Shown piece by piece: positions 26,048 through 53,930 of a stretch of DNA of 64,000 nucleotides; the stretch's first letter is position 1; every line of letters starts with the position of its first letter. The DNA is from Planctomycetota bacterium. GTDB lineage: Bacteria; Planctomycetota; Phycisphaerae; UBA1845; UTPLA1. The stretch covers positions 113,772 to 177,771 of the forward strand of contig JADJRI010000009.1 in NCBI GenBank assembly GCA_016712275.1, given 5' to 3'. Both the position numbers and the translations under genes were made by a program. The notes below the pieces were generated by a model. That model did no database searches and had not been told where the DNA came from. It saw nothing but the letters and a program-made list of their open reading frames with translations.

Positions 26048-26852
26048 TCAGCCCATTTCTCCATGGCCCGTAACGATAATGCGCTTCTGATTGGCAACTT
26101 TGACCGTTTTCACATACTTGCCATGCCTGACGAGTTCAAATCTCGTTTCGAAATTGAACTCATAGTTCCCAGGATTCAGCGCGACGTCGACAAGATAAGT
26201 CCCTTTCCCTGCCCCGGAACCCGATTTGAACTGATAGTTCAGACCCCTCACATTTAAGGGTTGATTGAGTGACTCGACGGATGCCGAGGCGCCGACGTTG
26301 CAGACTTCGAGGCCGCGATCAGCGCGCGGTTTCTCAAATTCGACCGAGACCCGCAAGGCGTCATTTGTTCTGATTTCCGAGTCGCACCGGAACGCTCCCG
26401 GTGTGATGATCTGGTCGTAATATCGAGCCTGCAGGTCCTGGCGGAAGCTGATTGCTGACGTCCGCTGATTCAAGGAGCGCAATCCAGCCCCTCGTTACAG
26501 GGGCGTCAGTGGGTTGATCCACTTGTTTTTCGAGAGCGAGCAAGAGCAGCGCCTGTGACTCATCGAATGAAAGCTGGCTGGTTGTCAGAAGATCTTCCAG
26601 CTGGCGAATGGCTCTTCGGTCACCGGCTTTTGCATCGTCATACAGAGACGAGACTGGAGCGTCGCCCGTCGCGACCGGAGGATGAGCTTTCTGCTCGCTC
26701 AAGCATCCGGCGGAAGCAAGTGGAATCAAGAGGACTGCACAGAGCGGTAAGGTGAGTGATCGGCCCATGGCTCGTGTGCCTCCTGTCGCTGACTCGCGGG
26801 GACGAACTGTCCTGCCTTTGTAGATCATACAACAACGAAACGCGAATTTCAC
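26048..26852 (-). CDS. Putative lipoprotein, beta-rich, frameshifted near 26380-26480
   Basis: The N-terminus has a signal peptide and lipobox (LLIPLASAGC). The C-terminal half continues in another frame (RTSAISFRQDLQARYYDQIITPGAFRCDSEIR...NYEFNFETRFELVRHGKYVKTVKVANQKRIIV). Confidence 0.4.
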
Positions 26853-27124
26853 ATGCTGCCGCGACCCGGGTCGTTGGCGACCAGCGCTTTCTTGAACGGA
26901 GGGGGAACTTCGCGGGCGGCGGGTAGACTTCCGAAGGCGCTACGGGAGAATGGCGACGTTCTCAATATATCAAGAGTCGAATCTCGGGCTCTTTCCCTAG
27001 TCGTCTGACCACTATTCGTGCCGCGAATTCGTGTGCGAAATTCGAGAGCCTTCATCGCGCGGAATCCCGCGTCGATTTCGAACACGACGCCCGCCGACCC
27101 CGGCGGCACGCCGGGCCCCGCCTG

Positions 27125-28036
27125 CTAAATCCGCTCTCCGCACTCCGGACATCGTGGCTCGACGAGGGATTTGAGGACGTACTGACACCGGCGGCAACGG
27201 GTTTCGTAATCCAGCAGGCTGACTTTTGAAGCGACCCACAACGCAATCGCGACGCCGATCGCAGCGGGAGCGATCGGGGCGAAAAATGGGTATGCTTCCG
27301 AGTCCACAATTCTTGGCATGAGCATTTGCGCGAAGCCGTGCAATCCCGGCGATGCAAGGAACGCGGCTGCCAGTCCCCCTGCGAAGGCCCGCACGATTCT
27401 GCCCCGTCGGACCTTCGCCCGATTCTGATCCGCACGAAAACGCGCATTCTCGAATGTGCCGCCCACTTCAACTGTCTGGAGGCGGTGGTGGGTCTTGATC
27501 ATATCAAGGCACGAATCAAACGATCCCTCCACGATAGCCGCCTGAGGAAGAATGATCGCTCCGGTGTTTGCGGTGAACACAAAAAGGCAATTGCCTTTCT
27601 CAACGATCTCCTTGATTTCATCCCAGGGATAGCGCAACGTCTCGTTGGCGGTCATTGTTGTCACGCCGACGGCATCGACGACCATTTCCGTCGGCCGCCC
27701 GAGGTTGGGAATCGCCCCCTGTTCAATTGCCGATTTAAGTCGTTTTACGTAGTCCTTGCGAATCGAGCCGGACAGTGTGAGAAGAAAGTACACAAAGATA
27801 AGACCGCAGATGAGAATCGCGAACCAACCCTCCTTGTACGCGAGACCGAGCCCGACGAGCGGCACTAGAATCAGGTACTTTCGTGCCCGGCCGATCTGTT
27901 CCCGGATGCGCGGATCGATCTCCGACAGGACTTGCGCTCCTGCGAGTAGCGAGTCGGCATCGAGCTGATAGACGATTCGAACGCCTGTCGTTCCAGATGC
28001 GCCCGTTGATGCGGTGAGATTCGACGCAGGCTCCAT
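27125..28036 (-). CDS. Membrane protein with a YcxB-like (bacterial PH-like) domain, four predicted TM helices and a C-terminal CxxC...CPECG zinc ribbon. Candidate retron effector.
   Basis: TM hairpin 1 is KYLILVPLVGLGLAYKEGWFAILICGLIFVYFLLTL. The YcxB-like core is LRYPWDEIKEIVEKGNCLFVFTANTGAIILPQAAIVEGSFDSCLDMI. TM hairpin 2 is IVRAFAGGLAAAFLA...FFAPIAPAAIGVAIALWVA. The C-terminus is ETRCRRCQYVLKSLVEPRCPECGERI. The gene starts 32 nt downstream of the RT stop on the same strand. Confidence 0.6.
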   Translation of the reverse strand: MEPASNLTASTGASGTTGVRIVYQLDADSLLAGAQVLSEIDPRIREQIGRARKYLILVPLVGLGLAYKEGWFAILICGLIFVYFLLTLSGSIRKDYVKRLKSAIEQGAIPNLGRPTEMVVDAVGVTTMTANETLRYPWDEIKEIVEKGNCLFVFTANTGAIILPQAAIVEGSFDSCLDMIKTHHRLQTVEVGGTFENARFRADQNRAKVRRGRIVRAFAGGLAAAFLASPGLHGFAQMLMPRIVDSEAYPFFAPIAPAAIGVAIALWVASKVSLLDYETRCRRCQYVLKSLVEPRCPECGERI

Positions 28037-28068
28037 GAGTTGATCGCTTTCTAATCCCGAGAGCCTGT

Positions 28069-29385
28069 CTAAGAGACGGCCCGAATTGCCTCAACTAATT
28101 TTCGCCCCCGCTCCGGATTCAGCTGCGCCACATGCGCCGCCCGGCCCAGCAGGTAGGCCCGGAAGTCCGGCCGGTGGTCGCGGTTCTGTGCGTCGAGCCC
28201 GGTCTTTCGCGCGTTGTGGATGATCGCCTTGAGCCGGTCATATTCGTCGCGCGCCACGTTCACTCGTTGGTTCACCACGACGCCCGTCACCTGCTGCCGC
28301 TGGCCGGATCGCATGAATCGGCGCTTCACATAGTTTTCAGAGAAGCCTTCAAGCCGAATGATCATGTGAAGGTGGTCCAGGAATCGCTTCATGCCGCGTT
28401 TGAAACGTTCATCGCCTGAGAATGTCAGATCGTCGGCATATCGGGTGTATTCGGCGTCGAACTTCTTCGCGAGGCCAGTCAGCCGACGGTCGAGTCGAAG
28501 GCAGGCGAGATTCGCGAGTGCGGGACTCGTCGGCGCGCCCTGCACCGCATGTCTGCGAATCCGCTGCATTTCCCATTGACCGTCAAGCCCGCGACTCGCC
28601 TCGCCCAGCTGCGGCGCGTGCGTACAGAGCCGTGCGAGCCAGCGAGAGACTTCGCTGCCGTATCCAAGGTGGCGAAAGACGCCATAGACCTGCTGAATGC
28701 GAATGTGCTCGAAGAAGTTCCTTAGATCAAGATTCACGACGAGCTTCCGCCCGACATGGCCGGCCGCGTTGGTGGCGATCGACCGCGTACGAACGAAGCC
28801 ATGGGCGGCCATGTGAACCGGCGCGCGATCGAGTATCTCCGCTTTGATCTTGCGCTGAATCGCCTTCAGGCGAGGCTTCGGACTGCAAATCACGCGAAGG
28901 CCTGCGCGGCGCTTCTTCACCGTCCATTCGACGTAGTTAGATTTGCCGGGGCGGACACGGCGTTCCGGATTCGCCAACGGGAGTAGCGATTTCAAATCTA
29001 CGCCCAGCCAGCGCAGGATGTCGGCCGTGTCCTTGAGCACCGGTATTCCGAGATCGCCGAGCTTCTGAGCGTTTGACGGCTTCTGAGGAAGCCGCTTCGA
29101 GCCCGGCAGCCAGACGCGCTCGCGGGTGACCCGCTCTCGGAGTTCTCCAACACCGTCGCCTTTGCGTTCGCACCGCCATCGCCGGCCGCCAAGGCTGTCC
29201 CATTTTTCGCTTTCGCTCCCAGCGCGTCGATATGCATAGCGCAGAAAAATCGCGACGCTCAGAAAGACGCCGAGTGGTATGCCGTAGCAAGCCCATGTTG
29301 TTGGTGCGAGTGCCAGCATGATTGGCGGCCCGAAACTCGATCGCGCGCTTTCGAAGCGGTGCGCGGTGTGTGGAGAGAAAAACAA
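28069..29385 (-). CDS. Retron-type reverse transcriptase (Ec86-like)
   Basis: It aligns by eye with Ec86 RT along its whole length: LGDLGIPVLKDTADILRWLGV vs NLGLPVMNNLHDMSKATRI; the retron-specific NAxxH motif (SIATNAAGHVG); motifs 1-2 (LVVNLDLRNFFEHIRIQQVYGVFRHLGY); motif 4 (QGAPTSPALANLACLRLDRRL); the YADDLTFSGD catalytic motif; and the retron VTG motif (GQRQQVTGVVVNQ). The first 22 codons start from TTG, and the first ATG is at 29319. Residues about 25-50 are hydrophobic (ALAPTTWACYGIPLGVFLSVAIFL), so the N-terminal extension may not be translated or may overlap the ncRNA. Confidence 0.8.
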   Translation of the reverse strand: MFFSPHTAHRFESARSSFGPPIMLALAPTTWACYGIPLGVFLSVAIFLRYAYRRAGSESEKWDSLGGRRWRCERKGDGVGELRERVTRERVWLPGSKRLPQKPSNAQKLGDLGIPVLKDTADILRWLGVDLKSLLPLANPERRVRPGKSNYVEWTVKKRRAGLRVICSPKPRLKAIQRKIKAEILDRAPVHMAAHGFVRTRSIATNAAGHVGRKLVVNLDLRNFFEHIRIQQVYGVFRHLGYGSEVSRWLARLCTHAPQLGEASRGLDGQWEMQRIRRHAVQGAPTSPALANLACLRLDRRLTGLAKKFDAEYTRYADDLTFSGDERFKRGMKRFLDHLHMIIRLEGFSENYVKRRFMRSGQRQQVTGVVVNQRVNVARDEYDRLKAIIHNARKTGLDAQNRDHRPDFRAYLLGRAAHVAQLNPERGRKLVEAIRAVS

Positions 29386-29720
29386 GCGCGGGGCGGAGTT
29401 TTACAACGCTCGGTCGTCGCGGCTGACGACGGTCCTCGCGACCGTCGCGGACCGCGACACTTCAGGAACGGCAGCGAAGCGGCTCGCTCGGGGTAACCCC
29501 GAACATCCTCGTAAGAGGACCCTAAAACGCCCGGTCCCGCGCTGAATTGCAGCCTATGAAATCAGGTCGCGCCAGTCAAGCTGAAGGGCGGGTCGCGGCG
29601 TTCGTCGGCGCGGATCGTGCTTCCCGGTCGTTTCCCAGCGTCGCGTCCATCTATCGTCGGCTTCCCCATGCACGGCGCGCGTTCAGCTGGATTGGCGGGG
29701 CAATTGGCCGATATTAGCAT
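29386..29720 (-). ncRNA. Candidate retron msr/msd non-coding RNA region (location inferred; a1/a2 repeats not resolved)
   Basis: This is a non-coding, hairpin-dense stretch upstream of the RT on the same strand. In minus-strand orientation it contains nested perfect stems: gtcgcgg-tc-cgcgac, cgacggtc-gcgag-gaccgtcg, gtcgtc-agccgc-gacgac, tcgggg-tta-ccccga and agggtcctc...gaggaccgt. There is a TAATAT -10-like box near 29705 on the minus strand. Retron ncRNAs normally sit in exactly this position. Confidence 0.3.
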
Positions 29721-29776
29721 GGTGCGATGGCGTCCAGCGCCGAGTCGCCGCAGTCCGCCGCTTTTCGGAGTTCCGC

Positions 29777-30861
29777 ATGTTTCGCAAACGTCACCCGCAG
29801 ATGGGCGCGAGCCCCGGCACGCTGTCGATTCACAGTGATTCTCCGATGCCGTTCGTGCACGTGATCGACTACTCGCCCGAAGAACTTCACGAACATGATG
29901 TTCAGCGGATCGCCGACCTCAAGCCGTTCGTCGAAAGCCCGAGCATGTGCTGGATCGATGTGCAGGGATTCGGCGATGAGAAAATCCTGCGCGAGATCGG
30001 CAATCTCATCGATCTTCACCCGCTCGCTCTGGCGGACGCCATCAACGTGCCGCAGCGGCCCAAGGTGGAGACGTACGGCAAACACCTGCTCTGGATCACA
30101 CAGATGGTGATGCCGCAGGCAGGGCACCGCATCCGCACTGAACAGGTGAGCCTCGTTCTTGGACCGAATTATCTCATTACTTTCCAGGAGCGCTATGGCG
30201 ATGTGCTTGACCCCGTCCGCGAACGCATTCGTGCCGGCAAGGGACTCATGCGAAAGTCCGGCCGGACTATCTCGCCTACGCCGTCATCGACGCTGTCATC
30301 GACGGGTACTACCCGATCATGGAGGACTTCGGCGAGCACCTGGAGGAACTGGAGGACGAGATCGTTGCAAGGCCTTATCCGGAATTGCTCCAGCAGATCC
30401 ACCGCGTGAAGCGGGAGATGCTGGCGCTTCGGCGAGCGGTCTGGCCGCAGCGCGAGGCGATCAATCAGCTCATCCGCGATGATTCGGACTTCGTATGCGA
30501 CTCCGTGAAGACTTATCTCCGCGACGCTTACGACCACTGCATCCAGATCATCGATGTGATCGAGACCTACCGCGAGCTCGTCAGCGGCCTCATGGACGTG
30601 TACCTGTCCAGCGTGGCGAACCGCCAGAATGAGGTAATGAAGGTCCTGACCATCACCGCCACCATTTTCATTCCCCTGACTTTCCTGGCGGGCATCTATG
30701 GCATGAACTTCGACGATATGCCGGAGCTGCATGAGTGGTGGGCCTATCCCGTCGTTCTTGTTTTGATGGGACTCATCTCACTCGGGATGCTGTATTACTT
30801 CCGGCGGAAAGGCTGGCTGGGTCGCGCCGATGCCGGGGATAAAAGCGCCGACGCTGATTGA
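29777..30861 (+). CDS. corA: Magnesium/cobalt transporter CorA, frameshifted near 30250
   Basis: The N-terminal cytoplasmic domain is in the 29777 ORF. The C-terminal part is in the 30319 ORF, with YGMNFDDMPELHEWWAYPVVLVLMGLISLGMLYYFRRKGW (GMN motif plus two TM helices). The correct joining frame gives GLMRKSGPDYLAYAVIDAVIDGYYPIMEDFG. Confidence 0.8.
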
Positions 30862-48299: not shown

Positions 48300-48803
48300 A
48301 TGGACAGGCTGAAGCGACGGCGGACGGTGCTGTGGATTCTCGGGGTGGTGTTGTTGCTGCCGCTCGTGCCGTTGATGTTCATCGGATTGCAAATCGGTCA
48401 GCCGCGTCTTTTTCTCATCATTGCAGGCTGGCTGCTTCTGAATGGGCTGATCGGTTATGTCGGCGGCCGTCGGGGGAGGCTTGCGATTGCCGTGCTCGGT
48501 CCGATGGCGCTGGTCGCAGCGGGACTGATCTACACCAGCCTTACAAATCCCTATGGCGGGCTTCGCAGCGCGCCGCCGGGAACCTATCCAGAGTGGTGGG
48601 GCCTCGCGATCATCATACCCATGGCAACTGTCGCTTTCGGCATTTCATTCGTGATGGCGGCGATGGGCATTCGGATTGTGGAGGAGCGCGGCCGATGCAG
48701 GTCGTGTGATTACCTGTTGAAAGGCCTGGCGGAGCCGAGGTGCCCTGAATGTGGCACTGATTTTGATCCGACGGAGGTTGAAGCGGGCGGGGCCGAGGCG
48801 TGA
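48300..48803 (+). CDS. Four-TM membrane protein with a C-terminal CxxC...CPECG zinc ribbon (paralogous C-terminus to the 27125..28036 gene)
   Basis: Begins at the internal Met (MDRLKRRRTVLWILGVVLLLPLVPLMFIGL...). The C-terminus is RGRCRSCDYLLKGLAEPRCPECGTDF. The upstream part of the listed ORF lies inside the tandem repeat, so it is unlikely to be coding. Confidence 0.55.
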   Translation: MDRLKRRRTVLWILGVVLLLPLVPLMFIGLQIGQPRLFLIIAGWLLLNGLIGYVGGRRGRLAIAVLGPMALVAAGLIYTSLTNPYGGLRSAPPGTYPEWWGLAIIIPMATVAFGISFVMAAMGIRIVEERGRCRSCDYLLKGLAEPRCPECGTDFDPTEVEAGGAEA

Positions 48804-51284: not shown

Positions 51285-51358
51285 TGGTTGTCTGGACGGG
51301 ATTTGAACCCGTATCCCACAGCTTAAGAGGCTGTTGCTCTCCATTGAGCTACCGGACG
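51285..51358 (-). tRNA. tRNA-Lys(CTT) with an encoded CCA end. The acceptor stem has two C-A mismatches.
   Basis: On the minus strand the cloverleaf reads: CGTCCGG (acceptor 5' strand), TA, GCTC-AATGGA-GAGC (D arm), A, ACAGC-CTCTTAA-GCTGT (anticodon arm, with anticodon CTT), GGGAT (variable loop), ACGGG-TTCAAAT-CCCGT (T arm), CCAGACA (acceptor 3' strand), A (discriminator), CCA. The acceptor pairs 1-72 and 5-68 are both C-A. Confidence 0.6.
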
Positions 51359-53613: not shown

Positions 53614-53706
53614 CTCTTTCGCCCCTGCCGGGGCTGAGGATGTCATGCGTTGGGCACCCACGGCTGACGCCGTGGGCTAATCTCTTTCGCCGCTGCCGCG
53701 GCTGGG
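53614..53706. repeat. Triple-hairpin dispersed repeat, copy C
   Basis: The sequence is tctttcGCCCCtgccGGGGCtgaggatgtcatgcgttgggcaCCCACGGCtgacGCCGTGGGctaatctctttcGCCGCtgccGCGGCtgggg. Confidence 0.75.
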
Positions 53707-53837: not shown

Positions 53838-53930
53838 TCTTTCGCCCCTGCCGGGGCTGAGGATGTCACACTAATGGCACCCACGGCTGACGCCGTGGGC
53901 TAATCTCTTTCGCCGCTGCCGCGGCTGGGG
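53838..53930. repeat. Triple-hairpin dispersed repeat, copy D (near-identical to copy C), followed by a fourth partial hairpin at 53955-53985
   Basis: The sequence is tctttcGCCCCtgccGGGGCtgaggatgtcacactaatggcaCCCACGGCtgacGCCGTGGGctaatctctttcGCCGCtgccGCGGCtgggg. The partial hairpin downstream reads tctttcGTCGCtgccGCGGCgggg. Confidence 0.75.

What the first reader, a model, noticed from the sequence alone, without database searches (positions are those of the whole stretch)
29386..29720. Hairpin-dense non-coding region upstream of the RT: putative msr/msd
In minus-strand orientation the stretch 29400-29520 contains a cascade of perfect, partly mutually exclusive GC stems: gtcgcgg/cgcgac, cgacggtc/gaccgtcg, gtcgtc/gacgac, tcgggg/ccccga and agggtcctc/gaggaccgt. 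It is preceded by a TAATAT -10-like box near 29705. I could not identify the terminal a1/a2 inverted repeats by eye, so the boundaries and even the exact location are inferred. The ncRNA could instead overlap the first about 270 nt of the annotated RT frame, which has no ATG between 29319 and the start of the Ec86-alignable region.
Basis: inference. Interest (0 to 1): 0.6.

Follow-up and report, generated by a model that had tools for sequence, protein, structure and literature searches.

The report
Retron msr-msd RNA gene upstream of RT
The flagged stretch does contain a conserved, structured non-coding RNA gene (about 159 nt) of the retron type just upstream of a reverse transcriptase gene, so it is a new member of a known kind of bacterial element, in an uncharacterised Planctomycetota lineage whose enzyme carries a predicted membrane anchor.

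Summary
I place it at 29543-29385, ending 65 nt before the RT ATG (29319).

- **Stability:** the 159-nt core folds far better than shuffles (z -4.5). The whole 335-nt interval does not (z -0.08).
- **Conservation:** the same element sits upstream of the RT in 10 other distinct loci (RT 49-73% identical).
- **Architecture:** covarying terminal repeats a2/a1, a conserved A-G (candidate branching G, 29522), three short msr hairpins and a long variable msd hairpin.
- **Covariation:** 94% of cells pair (40-48% when slid), and 23 of 49 pairs show compensatory changes.
- **Hallmark hairpin:** GGGG-NUA-CCCC also occurs once, upstream and on the same strand, in 45 of 80 distant RT loci.
- **Promoter:** a position-conserved TTGAC-17-nt-hexamer promoter puts the start at a2.
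three of them are window-specific. The alternative that the ncRNA overlaps the RT N-terminus is rejected.
- **Classification:** the RT is retron-type but scores between PADLOC RT_other and RT_XIII. It is usually a solo gene and has an N-terminal hydrophobic helix.
- **Not shown:** msDNA synthesis and biological function are inferred.

The parts
29574..29579 (-). -35-like hexamer TTGACT of the ncRNA promoter
   Evidence: TTGAC or TTGC is found at the same distance from the element in 10 of 11 homologs, although the spacers differ. The generic consensus scan did not call it.
29551..29556 (-). -10-like hexamer TAGGCT, 17 nt after the -35 and ending 7 nt before the first a2 base
   Evidence: A hexamer (TAGGCT, TATCCT, CAGAAT, CACAAT or CATAAT) ends 6-8 nt upstream of the first modelled base of the element (one base 5' of a2) in 11 of 11 homologs. 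Its role as a promoter is inferred.
29385..29543 (-). Whole msr-msd ncRNA, from a2 to a1 (159 nt)
   Evidence: nhmmer gives E 3e-43 and covariance model R1 gives 172.7 bits; it is the only hit in the 64-kb window. MFE is -86.5 kcal/mol, z -4.51. 94.2% of cells pair across 11 homologs.
29523..29543 (-). a2: 5' arm of the terminal helix (AGCGCGGG, AC bulge, CGGG, C, GUUUUA)
   Evidence: It pairs with 29385-29403. 7 of the 18 pairs show compensatory changes among 11 sequences, and 18 of 18 among 31. Examples are AGAUGCGGAGUCG/CGACUCCGCAUCU in L089 and GUCCUA/UAGG in L097.
29522..29522 (-). Candidate branching (priming) guanosine, in the context UUUUA-G-GG
   Evidence: An A-G immediately 3' of the a2 arm is invariant in 11 of 11 close homologs. 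It corresponds to CAAG(C/A) in distant loci. The context resembles the TAGC/CAGC/GAGC motifs listed in PMC6868368. This is inferred; G29530 in GGGCG is an alternative.
29505..29520 (-). msr hairpin 1 (GUCCUC-UUAC-GAGGAU)
   Evidence: 100% of cells pair. 2 of the 6 pairs covary, for example U-A to G-C in L095 and L097. A G-U pair present in 11 of 11 sequences fixes the strand.
29488..29502 (-). msr hairpin 2 (UCGGGG-UUA-CCCCGA), the family hallmark
   Evidence: The GGGG/CCCC pairs are invariant in 31 of 31 sequences, and the closing pair covaries between U-A and C-G. GGGGNTACCCC occurs exactly once, upstream and on the same strand, in 45 of 80 distant RT loci.
29474..29487 (-). msr hairpin 3 (GCGAG-CCGC-UUCGC)
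   Evidence: 92.7% of cells pair, but only one-sided (G-C to G-U) changes are seen. This is the weakest helix.
29416..29458 (-). Long msd hairpin (GUCGCGG..CGACGGUC-GCGAG-GACCGUCG..CCGCGAC)
   Evidence: The sequence differs in every homolog but the pairing is kept. 13 of the 14 pairs show compensatory changes. The same hairpin appears in independent MFE folds of all 11 homologs. As DNA it folds at -20.2 kcal/mol.
29404..29415 (-). Conserved tract GACCGAGCGUUG between the msd hairpin and a1; inferred start of the reverse-transcribed template
   Evidence: GAGCGUUG is nearly invariant in the 11 homologs. The template start at about U29405 is inferred by analogy with Ec86, from my own knowledge.
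29385..29403 (-). a1: 3' arm of the terminal helix (UAAAAC, UCCG, C, CCCGCGCU)
   Evidence: It is the partner of a2. A T- or pyrimidine-rich tract follows it in most homologs.
28069..29319 (-). Retron-type reverse transcriptase gene (416 aa) with an N-terminal hydrophobic helix
   Evidence: Pfam RVT_1 gives E 3e-19. PADLOC gives RT_other 394, RT_outgroup 376 and RT_XIII 369 bits. YADD, NAxxH and VTG are invariant in the family alignment. The ATG at 29319 agrees with a public 416-aa protein that is 100% identical. The hydrophobic segment scores 1.81 on the Kyte-Doolittle scale.
27125..28036 (-). YcxB-like membrane protein gene 32 nt downstream of the RT; a possible lineage-specific accessory or effector gene
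   Evidence: Pfam YcxB gives E 9e-9. It is present only in the window and in L084/L085 among 98 loci, at 34% identity. The link to the retron is weak.

Best explanation
Window 29543-29385 (minus strand) is the msr-msd non-coding RNA gene of a retron. Its reverse transcriptase is the next gene downstream (29319-28069).

Proposed mechanism:
1. A sigma-70-like promoter (TTGACT, 17 nt, TAGGCT) starts transcription at or next to the first base of a2.
2. The RNA folds so that its 5' end (a2) pairs with its 3' end (a1). This helix encloses three short msr hairpins and one long msd hairpin.
3. The RT, translated from the same transcript, binds the conserved msr hairpins, most likely the invariant GGGG-NUA-CCCC hairpin.
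4. The RT uses the 2'-OH of the conserved G at the inner end of a2 (most likely G29522) to prime reverse transcription. Copying would start at about U29405 and run through the msd hairpin.
5. The product would be a branched msDNA of roughly 55-75 nt carrying the variable hairpin.

Shown here: the location, strand, boundaries, conserved secondary structure, linkage to the RT gene, and the retron-type motifs of the RT.

Inferred: the transcription start, the identity of the branching G, the extent of the msDNA, and msDNA production itself.

Speculative: the biological role, presumably phage defence. The RT's predicted N-terminal membrane anchor, and in this genome the YcxB-like membrane protein, might act as the output.
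For: - **Same element in all close homologs.** It is present 30-81 nt upstream of the RT start, on the same strand, in all 10 other distinct loci with RT identity of 49-73%. nhmmer gives E 1e-14 to 1e-44 and covariance model R1 gives 107-173 bits.
- **Same fold found independently.** Separate MFE folds of the 11 sequences all give the same architecture.
- **Covariation in 11 sequences.** 94.2% of cells pair, against 40-48% when partners are slid. 23 of 49 pairs have compensatory changes, against 3-7 when slid. 0 of 500 shuffles reach the observed values on four of the five measures; for 'further pair types' 5 of 500 do.
- **Covariation in 31 sequences.** 92.3% of cells pair, and 44 of 49 pairs have compensatory changes.
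- **Thermodynamic signal.** The core has z -4.51.
- **Strand.** G-U pairs are conserved in 11 of 11 sequences, and the promoter is conserved in position.
- **Hallmark hairpin in distant loci.** GGGGNTACCCC occurs once, 290-670 nt upstream of the RT match and on the same strand, in 45 of 80 distant RT loci.
- **RT-independent retrieval.** A DNA pattern scan returned 4 metagenome contigs. Both contigs with enough downstream sequence encode the RT (L099, L101). None contradicts the linkage.
- **Retron-type RT.** YADD, NAxxH and VTG are invariant, and the top PADLOC hits are all retron RT models.
- **Priming-G context.** It is consistent with the motifs listed in PMC6868368.
Against: - There are no transcript or msDNA data.
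- Rfam has no matching family, so there is no independent curated model.
- The generic promoter scan does not call the proposed promoter.
- The branching G is ambiguous: G29522 or G29530.
- A short alternative helix, UUAGG/CCUGA, overlaps the inner part of the a2/a1 helix and pairs in 94.5% of cells. It is almost invariant, and in sequence comparisons it fails to pair fully in the three most divergent homologs, L095 and L097 and L098.
- The covariance-model alignments lean towards the model structure, and the weak hits in A5 (E 0.01-1) may include misalignments.
- No conserved effector gene accompanies the RT, so the system is incomplete by the tripartite retron definition.
- According to its abstract (10.1101/2025.10.22.683967, seen), type VI retrons do not follow the canonical high-msDNA mechanism, so msDNA production cannot be assumed.
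Confidence: 0.88

Rival explanations
1. The element is a structured 5' leader of the RT mRNA, for example an attenuator or an RT-binding autoregulatory site. It would control RT expression and would not be reverse transcribed into msDNA.
For: - The a2/a1-closed structure is followed by a T- or pyrimidine-rich tract in most homologs.
- It lies 30-81 nt before the RT start.
- No msDNA has been shown.
Against: - The architecture matches the canonical retron ncRNA point for point: terminal repeats, a conserved G at the helix end, short conserved hairpins, and one long hairpin that changes sequence freely but keeps its pairing.
- A pure leader would not be expected to keep a hypervariable long hairpin.
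- The tool found no intrinsic terminator.
Confidence: 0.07
2. The stems are chance GC-rich palindromes in an intergenic region, or regulatory sequence of the divergent corA gene, for example its promoter, operator or leader.
For: - The whole 335-nt interval folds no better than shuffles.
- The plus strand of the core is almost as stable as the minus strand (z -4.16).
- corA starts at 29777 on the other strand, and this synteny is kept in L081, L084 and L086.
Against: - The element accompanies the RT in loci that have no corA nearby (L089, L090, L091, L092, L094, L095, L097).
- Compensatory substitutions and strand-specific G-U pairs rule out chance.
- It lies beyond corA's 5' end, on the opposite strand.
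Confidence: 0.02
3. The ncRNA lies elsewhere: within the first ~270 nt of the RT frame, or downstream of the YcxB-like gene. On this view the 29400-29520 hairpins would be incidental.
Against: - The N-terminal extension encodes a hydrophobic helix conserved as a feature, and conserved residues (invariant P94, Q101, P115; the LPGS..RQ block) across 30 homologs.
- The PADLOC RT profiles already align from residue 83-106.
- The model hits only 29384-29544 in the whole window.
Confidence: 0.02

Closest known systems
Canonical retron msr-msd ncRNA (e.g. Retron-Eco1/Ec86), as described in PMC7736814 and PMC6868368
   Same: - It lies upstream of the RT on the same strand.
- It has terminal inverted repeats a1/a2.
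- It has a conserved G at the inner end of the a2 arm.
- It has 1-3 short msr hairpins.
- It has a single long, variable msd hairpin.
- The RT carries YADD, NAxxH and VTG.
   Different: - There is no sequence similarity.
- The priming context is UAGG rather than TAGC.
- The terminal helix is longer (about 18 bp, with bulges).
- No conserved effector gene is present.
- The RT has an N-terminal extension of about 100 aa with a hydrophobic helix.
Stand-alone (msr-msd)-RT cassettes of Mestre et al. RT clade 11 (ncRNA families A and B). The equation of this clade with the PADLOC RT_other/RT_outgroup models is my inference.
   Same: - RT_other is the best-scoring model (394 bits).
- The RT is usually a solo gene with its ncRNA.
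- The GGGG-NUA-CCCC hairpin and the position of the A-G are shared with loci whose RTs are clear RT_other members: Arthrobacter L074, Burkholderia L066 and Acidobacteria L027.
   Different: - The RT scores well below clear members (394 against 490-560 bits) and almost ties with RT_XIII.
- The N-terminal part of the profile is not matched. A transmembrane-like helix takes its place.
- nhmmer does not link the ncRNA sequences. Only the covariance model does, and weakly (17-42 bits).
- The published clade 11 models could not be run.
Type XIII retrons (Retron-Mxa1/Mx162, Mxa2/Mx65; RT clade 10)
   Same: - The RT has an extended N-terminus (PMC6868368).
- RT_XIII scores 369 bits.
- Inheritance appears vertical at a fixed chromosomal site next to corA in four related genomes. 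Vertical inheritance is reported for type XIII in PMC7736814.
   Different: - There is no SWIM/DEDE or HEAT/ARM partner gene.
- A clear type XIII locus (L012, RT_XIII 523 bits) has no match to the ncRNA model or to the hallmark motif.
Type IV retrons (RT plus a 2-TM membrane effector)
   Same: There may be a membrane-located output: the predicted TM helix on the RT itself and, in this genome, a multi-TM YcxB-like protein downstream.
   Different: - The RT clade is different.
- The YcxB-like gene is present in only 2 of the distinct loci, so it is not a defining partner.
- No experimental link exists.

Membership tests
Retron (msr-msd ncRNA + RT) | Retron-type RT with a YADD catalytic core, the NAxxH motif (region X) and the VTG triplet | tested here: met
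   Y316 A317 D318 D319, N206..H210 and V366 T367 G368 are invariant in 30 homologs. The best PADLOC hits are all retron RT models.
Retron (msr-msd ncRNA + RT) | A structured ncRNA gene contiguous with the RT and on the same strand | tested here: met
   The element at 29543-29385 ends 65 nt before the ATG at 29319. The same arrangement is seen in all 10 other distinct homologous loci.
Retron (msr-msd ncRNA + RT) | Complementary terminal repeats a1/a2 that close the structure | tested here: met
   Helix 1 has 18 pairs and 93% of cells pair. Compensatory changes occur in 7 pairs among 11 sequences and in 18 pairs among 31 sequences.
Retron (msr-msd ncRNA + RT) | One to three short msr hairpins plus one long, variable msd hairpin | tested here: met
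   There are three msr hairpins (29520-29474) and a long hairpin (29458-29416). 13 of the long hairpin's 14 pairs covary.
Retron (msr-msd ncRNA + RT) | A conserved branching G at the inner end of the a2 arm that forms a 2'-5' link to the msDNA | tested here: inconclusive
   A-G is conserved in 11 of 11 sequences at 29523-29522, and as CAAG in distant loci. A second candidate is G29530. The 2'-5' linkage itself cannot be tested in silico.
Retron (msr-msd ncRNA + RT) | Production of msDNA | not testable with these tools
   This needs nucleic-acid extraction or RT-DNA sequencing.
Retron (msr-msd ncRNA + RT) | An associated effector protein or domain (tripartite system) | tested here: inconclusive
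   There is no conserved neighbour across loci. The YcxB-like gene occurs only in the window and L084. The N-terminal hydrophobic helix on the RT is conserved in the subfamily, but its role is unknown.
Type XIII retron (Mx162/Mx65-like) | RT belongs to clade 10 | tested here: inconclusive
   RT_XIII scores 369 bits against 394 for RT_other. A clear type XIII RT (L012) scores 523 against 361.
Type XIII retron (Mx162/Mx65-like) | Linked SWIM Zn-finger/DEDE protein, with or without a HEAT/ARM repeat protein | tested here: not met
   Neighbours were scanned with Pfam and PADLOC. Only a YcxB-like protein (downstream) and CorA (upstream) were found. No such gene family recurs in the close loci.
Type XIII retron (Mx162/Mx65-like) | Type XIII ncRNA structure | not testable with these tools
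   The published models were not available. Model R1 and the hallmark motif do not match the clear type XIII locus L012.
[quoted passage not shown] | RT best matched by the group's model | tested here: inconclusive
   RT_other is the top hit at 394 bits, but clear members score 490-560 with a wide margin over RT_XIII.
[quoted passage not shown] | No associated effector gene | tested here: met
   The RT is flanked by unrelated housekeeping genes in L081, L086, L089-L092, L094, L095 and L097.
[quoted passage not shown] | ncRNA matches the clade11-A or clade11-B covariance model | not testable with these tools
   The models were not available. The element shares the GGGG-NUA-CCCC hairpin and the A-G position with the ncRNAs of loci that have strong RT_other RTs.

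The most novel reading that the evidence does not exclude
The window's subfamily may be a distinct retron lineage in Planctomycetota that is inherited vertically. In four related genomes it sits at the same chromosomal site, next to corA. The RT is tethered to the membrane by its own N-terminal transmembrane helix, and no separate effector gene is needed. On this reading the RT-msDNA complex would itself be the membrane-located sensor and effector, or would serve a housekeeping role rather than classic abortive infection. Its ncRNA family, with the GGGG-NUA-CCCC hairpin, would link it to a very broad, uncharacterised group of solo retrons in Acidobacteriota, Actinomycetota and Pseudomonadota.
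Probability: 0.25. Interest if true: 0.65.

Novelty: new member of a known kind. Interest (0 to 1): 0.45.

Why it matters
- It gives exact boundaries, a covariation-supported structure and a candidate priming G for the ncRNA of a retron lineage with no characterised member. The lineage has no Rfam family, and no paper in the searched library describes a Planctomycetota retron RT with a transmembrane helix or links retrons to YcxB.
- That makes the system directly testable: synthesise 29579-28069, express it, and look for msDNA.
- It supplies a model (R1) that recovers related ncRNAs in distant phyla.
- A compact, effector-free msr-msd-RT cassette producing a short msDNA could also interest retron-based genome editing.
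- The conserved N-terminal membrane helix raises a concrete question about where and how solo retrons act.

Tried and rejected
- **Rfam.** A gathering-threshold scan of the window and a permissive scan of 26500-30500 found no retron or other relevant family.
The promoter call rests on positional conservation only.
The close relatives had to be fetched one by one through the look-up of encoding contigs.
- **nhmmer from the close ncRNAs** does not reach the distant loci.
- **Model R1 with filters off on myxobacterial loci** gave only noise hairpins. A weak 11-bit hit at L079 3507-3681 coincides with an a1/a2-like repeat and a CCGGGG-UAC-CCCCGG hairpin, but it is not significant.
- **RNAalifold's alternative helix UUAGG/CCUGA** was considered. 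It was set aside as the main fold because it is nearly invariant and fails to pair fully in L095, L097 and L098, whereas GUUUUA/UAAAAC is kept by compensatory changes.
- **YcxB-like protein as the retron effector** is not supported as a family feature, since it occurs in only 2 distinct loci.
- **Mestre et al. supplements** are not held, so the clade assignment could not be checked.
- **Viral contigs** gave no match to the ncRNA core.

Full report
**What is in the window.** Read on the minus strand, the interval lies between two genes. Downstream is an RT gene. The ORF runs 29385-28069, but the real start is the ATG at 29319. That start agrees with a public 416-aa protein that is 100% identical (P0001) and with homologs that begin MLA.... 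Upstream is a divergent corA gene that starts at 29777 on the plus strand.

The RT matches Pfam RVT_1. Its best PADLOC hits are retron RT models: RT_other 394 bits, RT_outgroup 376 and RT_XIII 369. NCBIfam retron families match only below their cut-offs. YADD, NAxxH and VTG are invariant in an alignment of 30 homologs. A YcxB-like membrane protein gene follows 32 nt downstream (27125-28036).

**Checking the observation.** However, the 335-nt interval as a whole folds no better than dinucleotide shuffles (z -0.08). The signal is concentrated in a 159-nt core, 29543-29385, which has MFE -86.5 kcal/mol and z -4.51, with 0 of 200 shuffles as stable. Rfam has nothing here.

**Comparative evidence.** I fetched the loci of the closest RT homologs (49-73% identity) one by one. 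Every one with enough upstream sequence carries the same element 30-81 nt before the RT start, on the RT strand. nhmmer gives E-values of 1e-14 to 1e-44.

Independent MFE folds of the 11 distinct sequences give the same architecture. A hand-specified structure was turned into covariance model R1. R1 scores the 11 elements at 107-173 bits and hits nothing else in the 64-kb window.

On the alignment of these 11 sequences:
- 94.2% of cells pair, against 40-48% when the 3' partners are slid.
- 23 of 49 pairs show compensatory double changes, against 3-7 when slid.
- 0 of 500 shuffles reach the observed values on four of the five measures; for 'further pair types' 5 of 500 do.

G-U pairs conserved in 11 of 11 sequences fix the transcribed strand as the RT strand.

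**Anatomy (minus strand).**
- **a2:** 29543-29523 (AGCGCGGG, AC, CGGG, C, GUUUUA). It pairs with a1.
- **a1:** 29403-29385 (UAAAAC, UCCG, C, CCCGCGCU).
- **Covariation of the outer helix:** it changes freely, for example AGAUGCGGAGUCG/CGACUCCGCAUCU in L089.
- **Covariation of the inner helix:** GUUUUA/UAAAAC becomes GUCCUA/UAGG in L097 and GCACAA/UUGUGC in distant loci.
- **Candidate priming G:** an invariant A-G follows at 29523-29522. In distant relatives the equivalent is CAAG(C/A). This is the position and kind of context (TAGC, CAGC, GAGC) reported for the priming guanosine (PMC6868368). G29530 is a weaker alternative.
- **Hairpin 1:** 29520-29505.
- **Hairpin 2:** 29502-29488, UCGGGG-UUA-CCCCGA.
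- **Hairpin 3:** 29487-29474. This is the weakest helix.
- **Single-stranded tract:** a conserved UUCCUGA.
- **Long hairpin:** 29458-29416. Its sequence differs in every homolog while 13 of its 14 pairs covary, which is the behaviour expected of an msd stem.
- **Conserved tract before a1:** GACCGAGCGUUG.

By analogy with Ec86 (my own knowledge), reverse transcription would start at about U29405. The msDNA would then read as the plus strand from 29405 to about 29470. That DNA folds into the same hairpin.

**Promoter.** The tool's consensus scan calls nothing. Yet in 11 of 11 homologs a -35-like TTGAC/TTGC, a spacer of about 17 nt with unrelated sequence, and a -10-like hexamer end 6-8 nt before the first modelled base of the element, which is one base 5' of a2. 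In the window these are TTGACT 29579-29574 and TAGGCT 29556-29551. It has no -35 partner and is conserved only in the near-identical L084. It may belong to the corA side of the intergenic region.

**Wider family.** R1 also finds full-length, same-strand matches upstream of the RT in 20 of the 80 distant loci (RT 38-49% identical) from the genome scan. The alignment of all 31 matches keeps 92.3% pairing.

The exact motif GGGGNTACCCC occurs once, 290-670 nt upstream of the RT match, in 45 of 80 such loci. These include Acidobacteriota, Burkholderia and Arthrobacter.

An RT-independent scan with the ncRNA core found four metagenome contigs and no viral contig. The two contigs with enough downstream sequence encode the RT.

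**Classification.** Clear RT_other members (L074, L079, L066, L027) score 490-560 bits against 283-338 for RT_XIII. A clear type XIII RT (L012) scores 523 against 361. The window's subfamily is intermediate, at 355-428 against 348-369.

Type XIII partner genes (SWIM/DEDE, HEAT/ARM; PMC7736814) are absent. The RT is a solo gene among unrelated housekeeping genes in most close loci. This recalls the stand-alone msr-msd-RT cassettes that Mestre et al. report for clades 2 and 11, for which two ncRNA families, A and B, exist. I could not run those models.

The close subfamily alone has an N-terminal hydrophobic, transmembrane-like helix followed by basic residues. The YcxB-like gene is present only in the window and in L084/L085. 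No paper in the library links retrons with YcxB or describes a Planctomycetota retron RT with a transmembrane helix.

**Verdict.** This is a new member of a known kind, a retron ncRNA in an uncharacterised lineage. msDNA synthesis, the priming G and the biological output remain to be shown experimentally.

Noticed in passing
window 53657-53703 and 53880-53926 (+): Two identical-scoring Rfam Acido-Lenti-1 sRNA matches (47.8 bits, gathering score 37) lie 223 nt apart.
   Followed up: no
window 51288-51358 (-): A tRNA gene (Rfam RF00005, 65.3 bits).
   Followed up: no
window 29777-30861 (+): corA is split into two overlapping ORFs (29777-30409 and 30319-30861; Pfam CorA N- and C-terminal halves). 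L081, L084 and L086 have an intact CorA of 358-361 aa at the same position. This is a frameshift or an assembly error.
   Followed up: partly
window 26048-26852 (-): Two overlapping ORFs (26361-26852 and 26048-26482) together match a single 239-aa gene of L084 at 80-86% identity. This is a second apparent frameshift close to the first, which suggests indel errors in the assembly.
   Followed up: partly
window 27125-28036 (-) and 48657-48755 (+): The YcxB-like protein is only 34% identical to its L084 counterpart, while the flanking RT is 64% identical and the downstream gene 80-86%. Its C-terminal CxxC...CPxCG zinc-ribbon-like tail also matches a translated stretch at 48657-48755.
   Followed up: partly
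L100 1437-1774 (contig WBZL01091620.1): This metagenome contig is identical to the window from the ncRNA promoter through the msd hairpin (window about 29557 to 29420). It then continues into unrelated sequence that is not found in the window. It could be a chimeric assembly, or a rearrangement or insertion in the msd.
   Followed up: partly
P0059-P0119 (distant RT homologs, 44-53% identical): Instead of the hydrophobic helix, these RTs begin with a conserved amphipathic-looking motif (MGLWDWLLRLFG / MSFFDSILRWLG) followed by a long arginine-rich tract.
   Followed up: no
L001, L002, L005, L006, L010, L011, L024; and L012, L026, L033, L042, L052, L053, L056, L067, L069, L071, L078: Seven distant loci share a gene of about 259 aa directly downstream of the RT on the same strand. 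Eleven loci that lack the GGGGNTACCCC motif share an upstream same-strand gene of about 568 aa, possibly the type XIII partner.
   Followed up: no
window 29384-29370 (-) and equivalents in L081-L097: A T- or pyrimidine-rich tract follows a1 directly in most homologs. In the window it is UGUUUUUCUCU. It might act as a partial terminator that sets the ncRNA-to-RT ratio. The terminator scan did not call it.
   Followed up: partly
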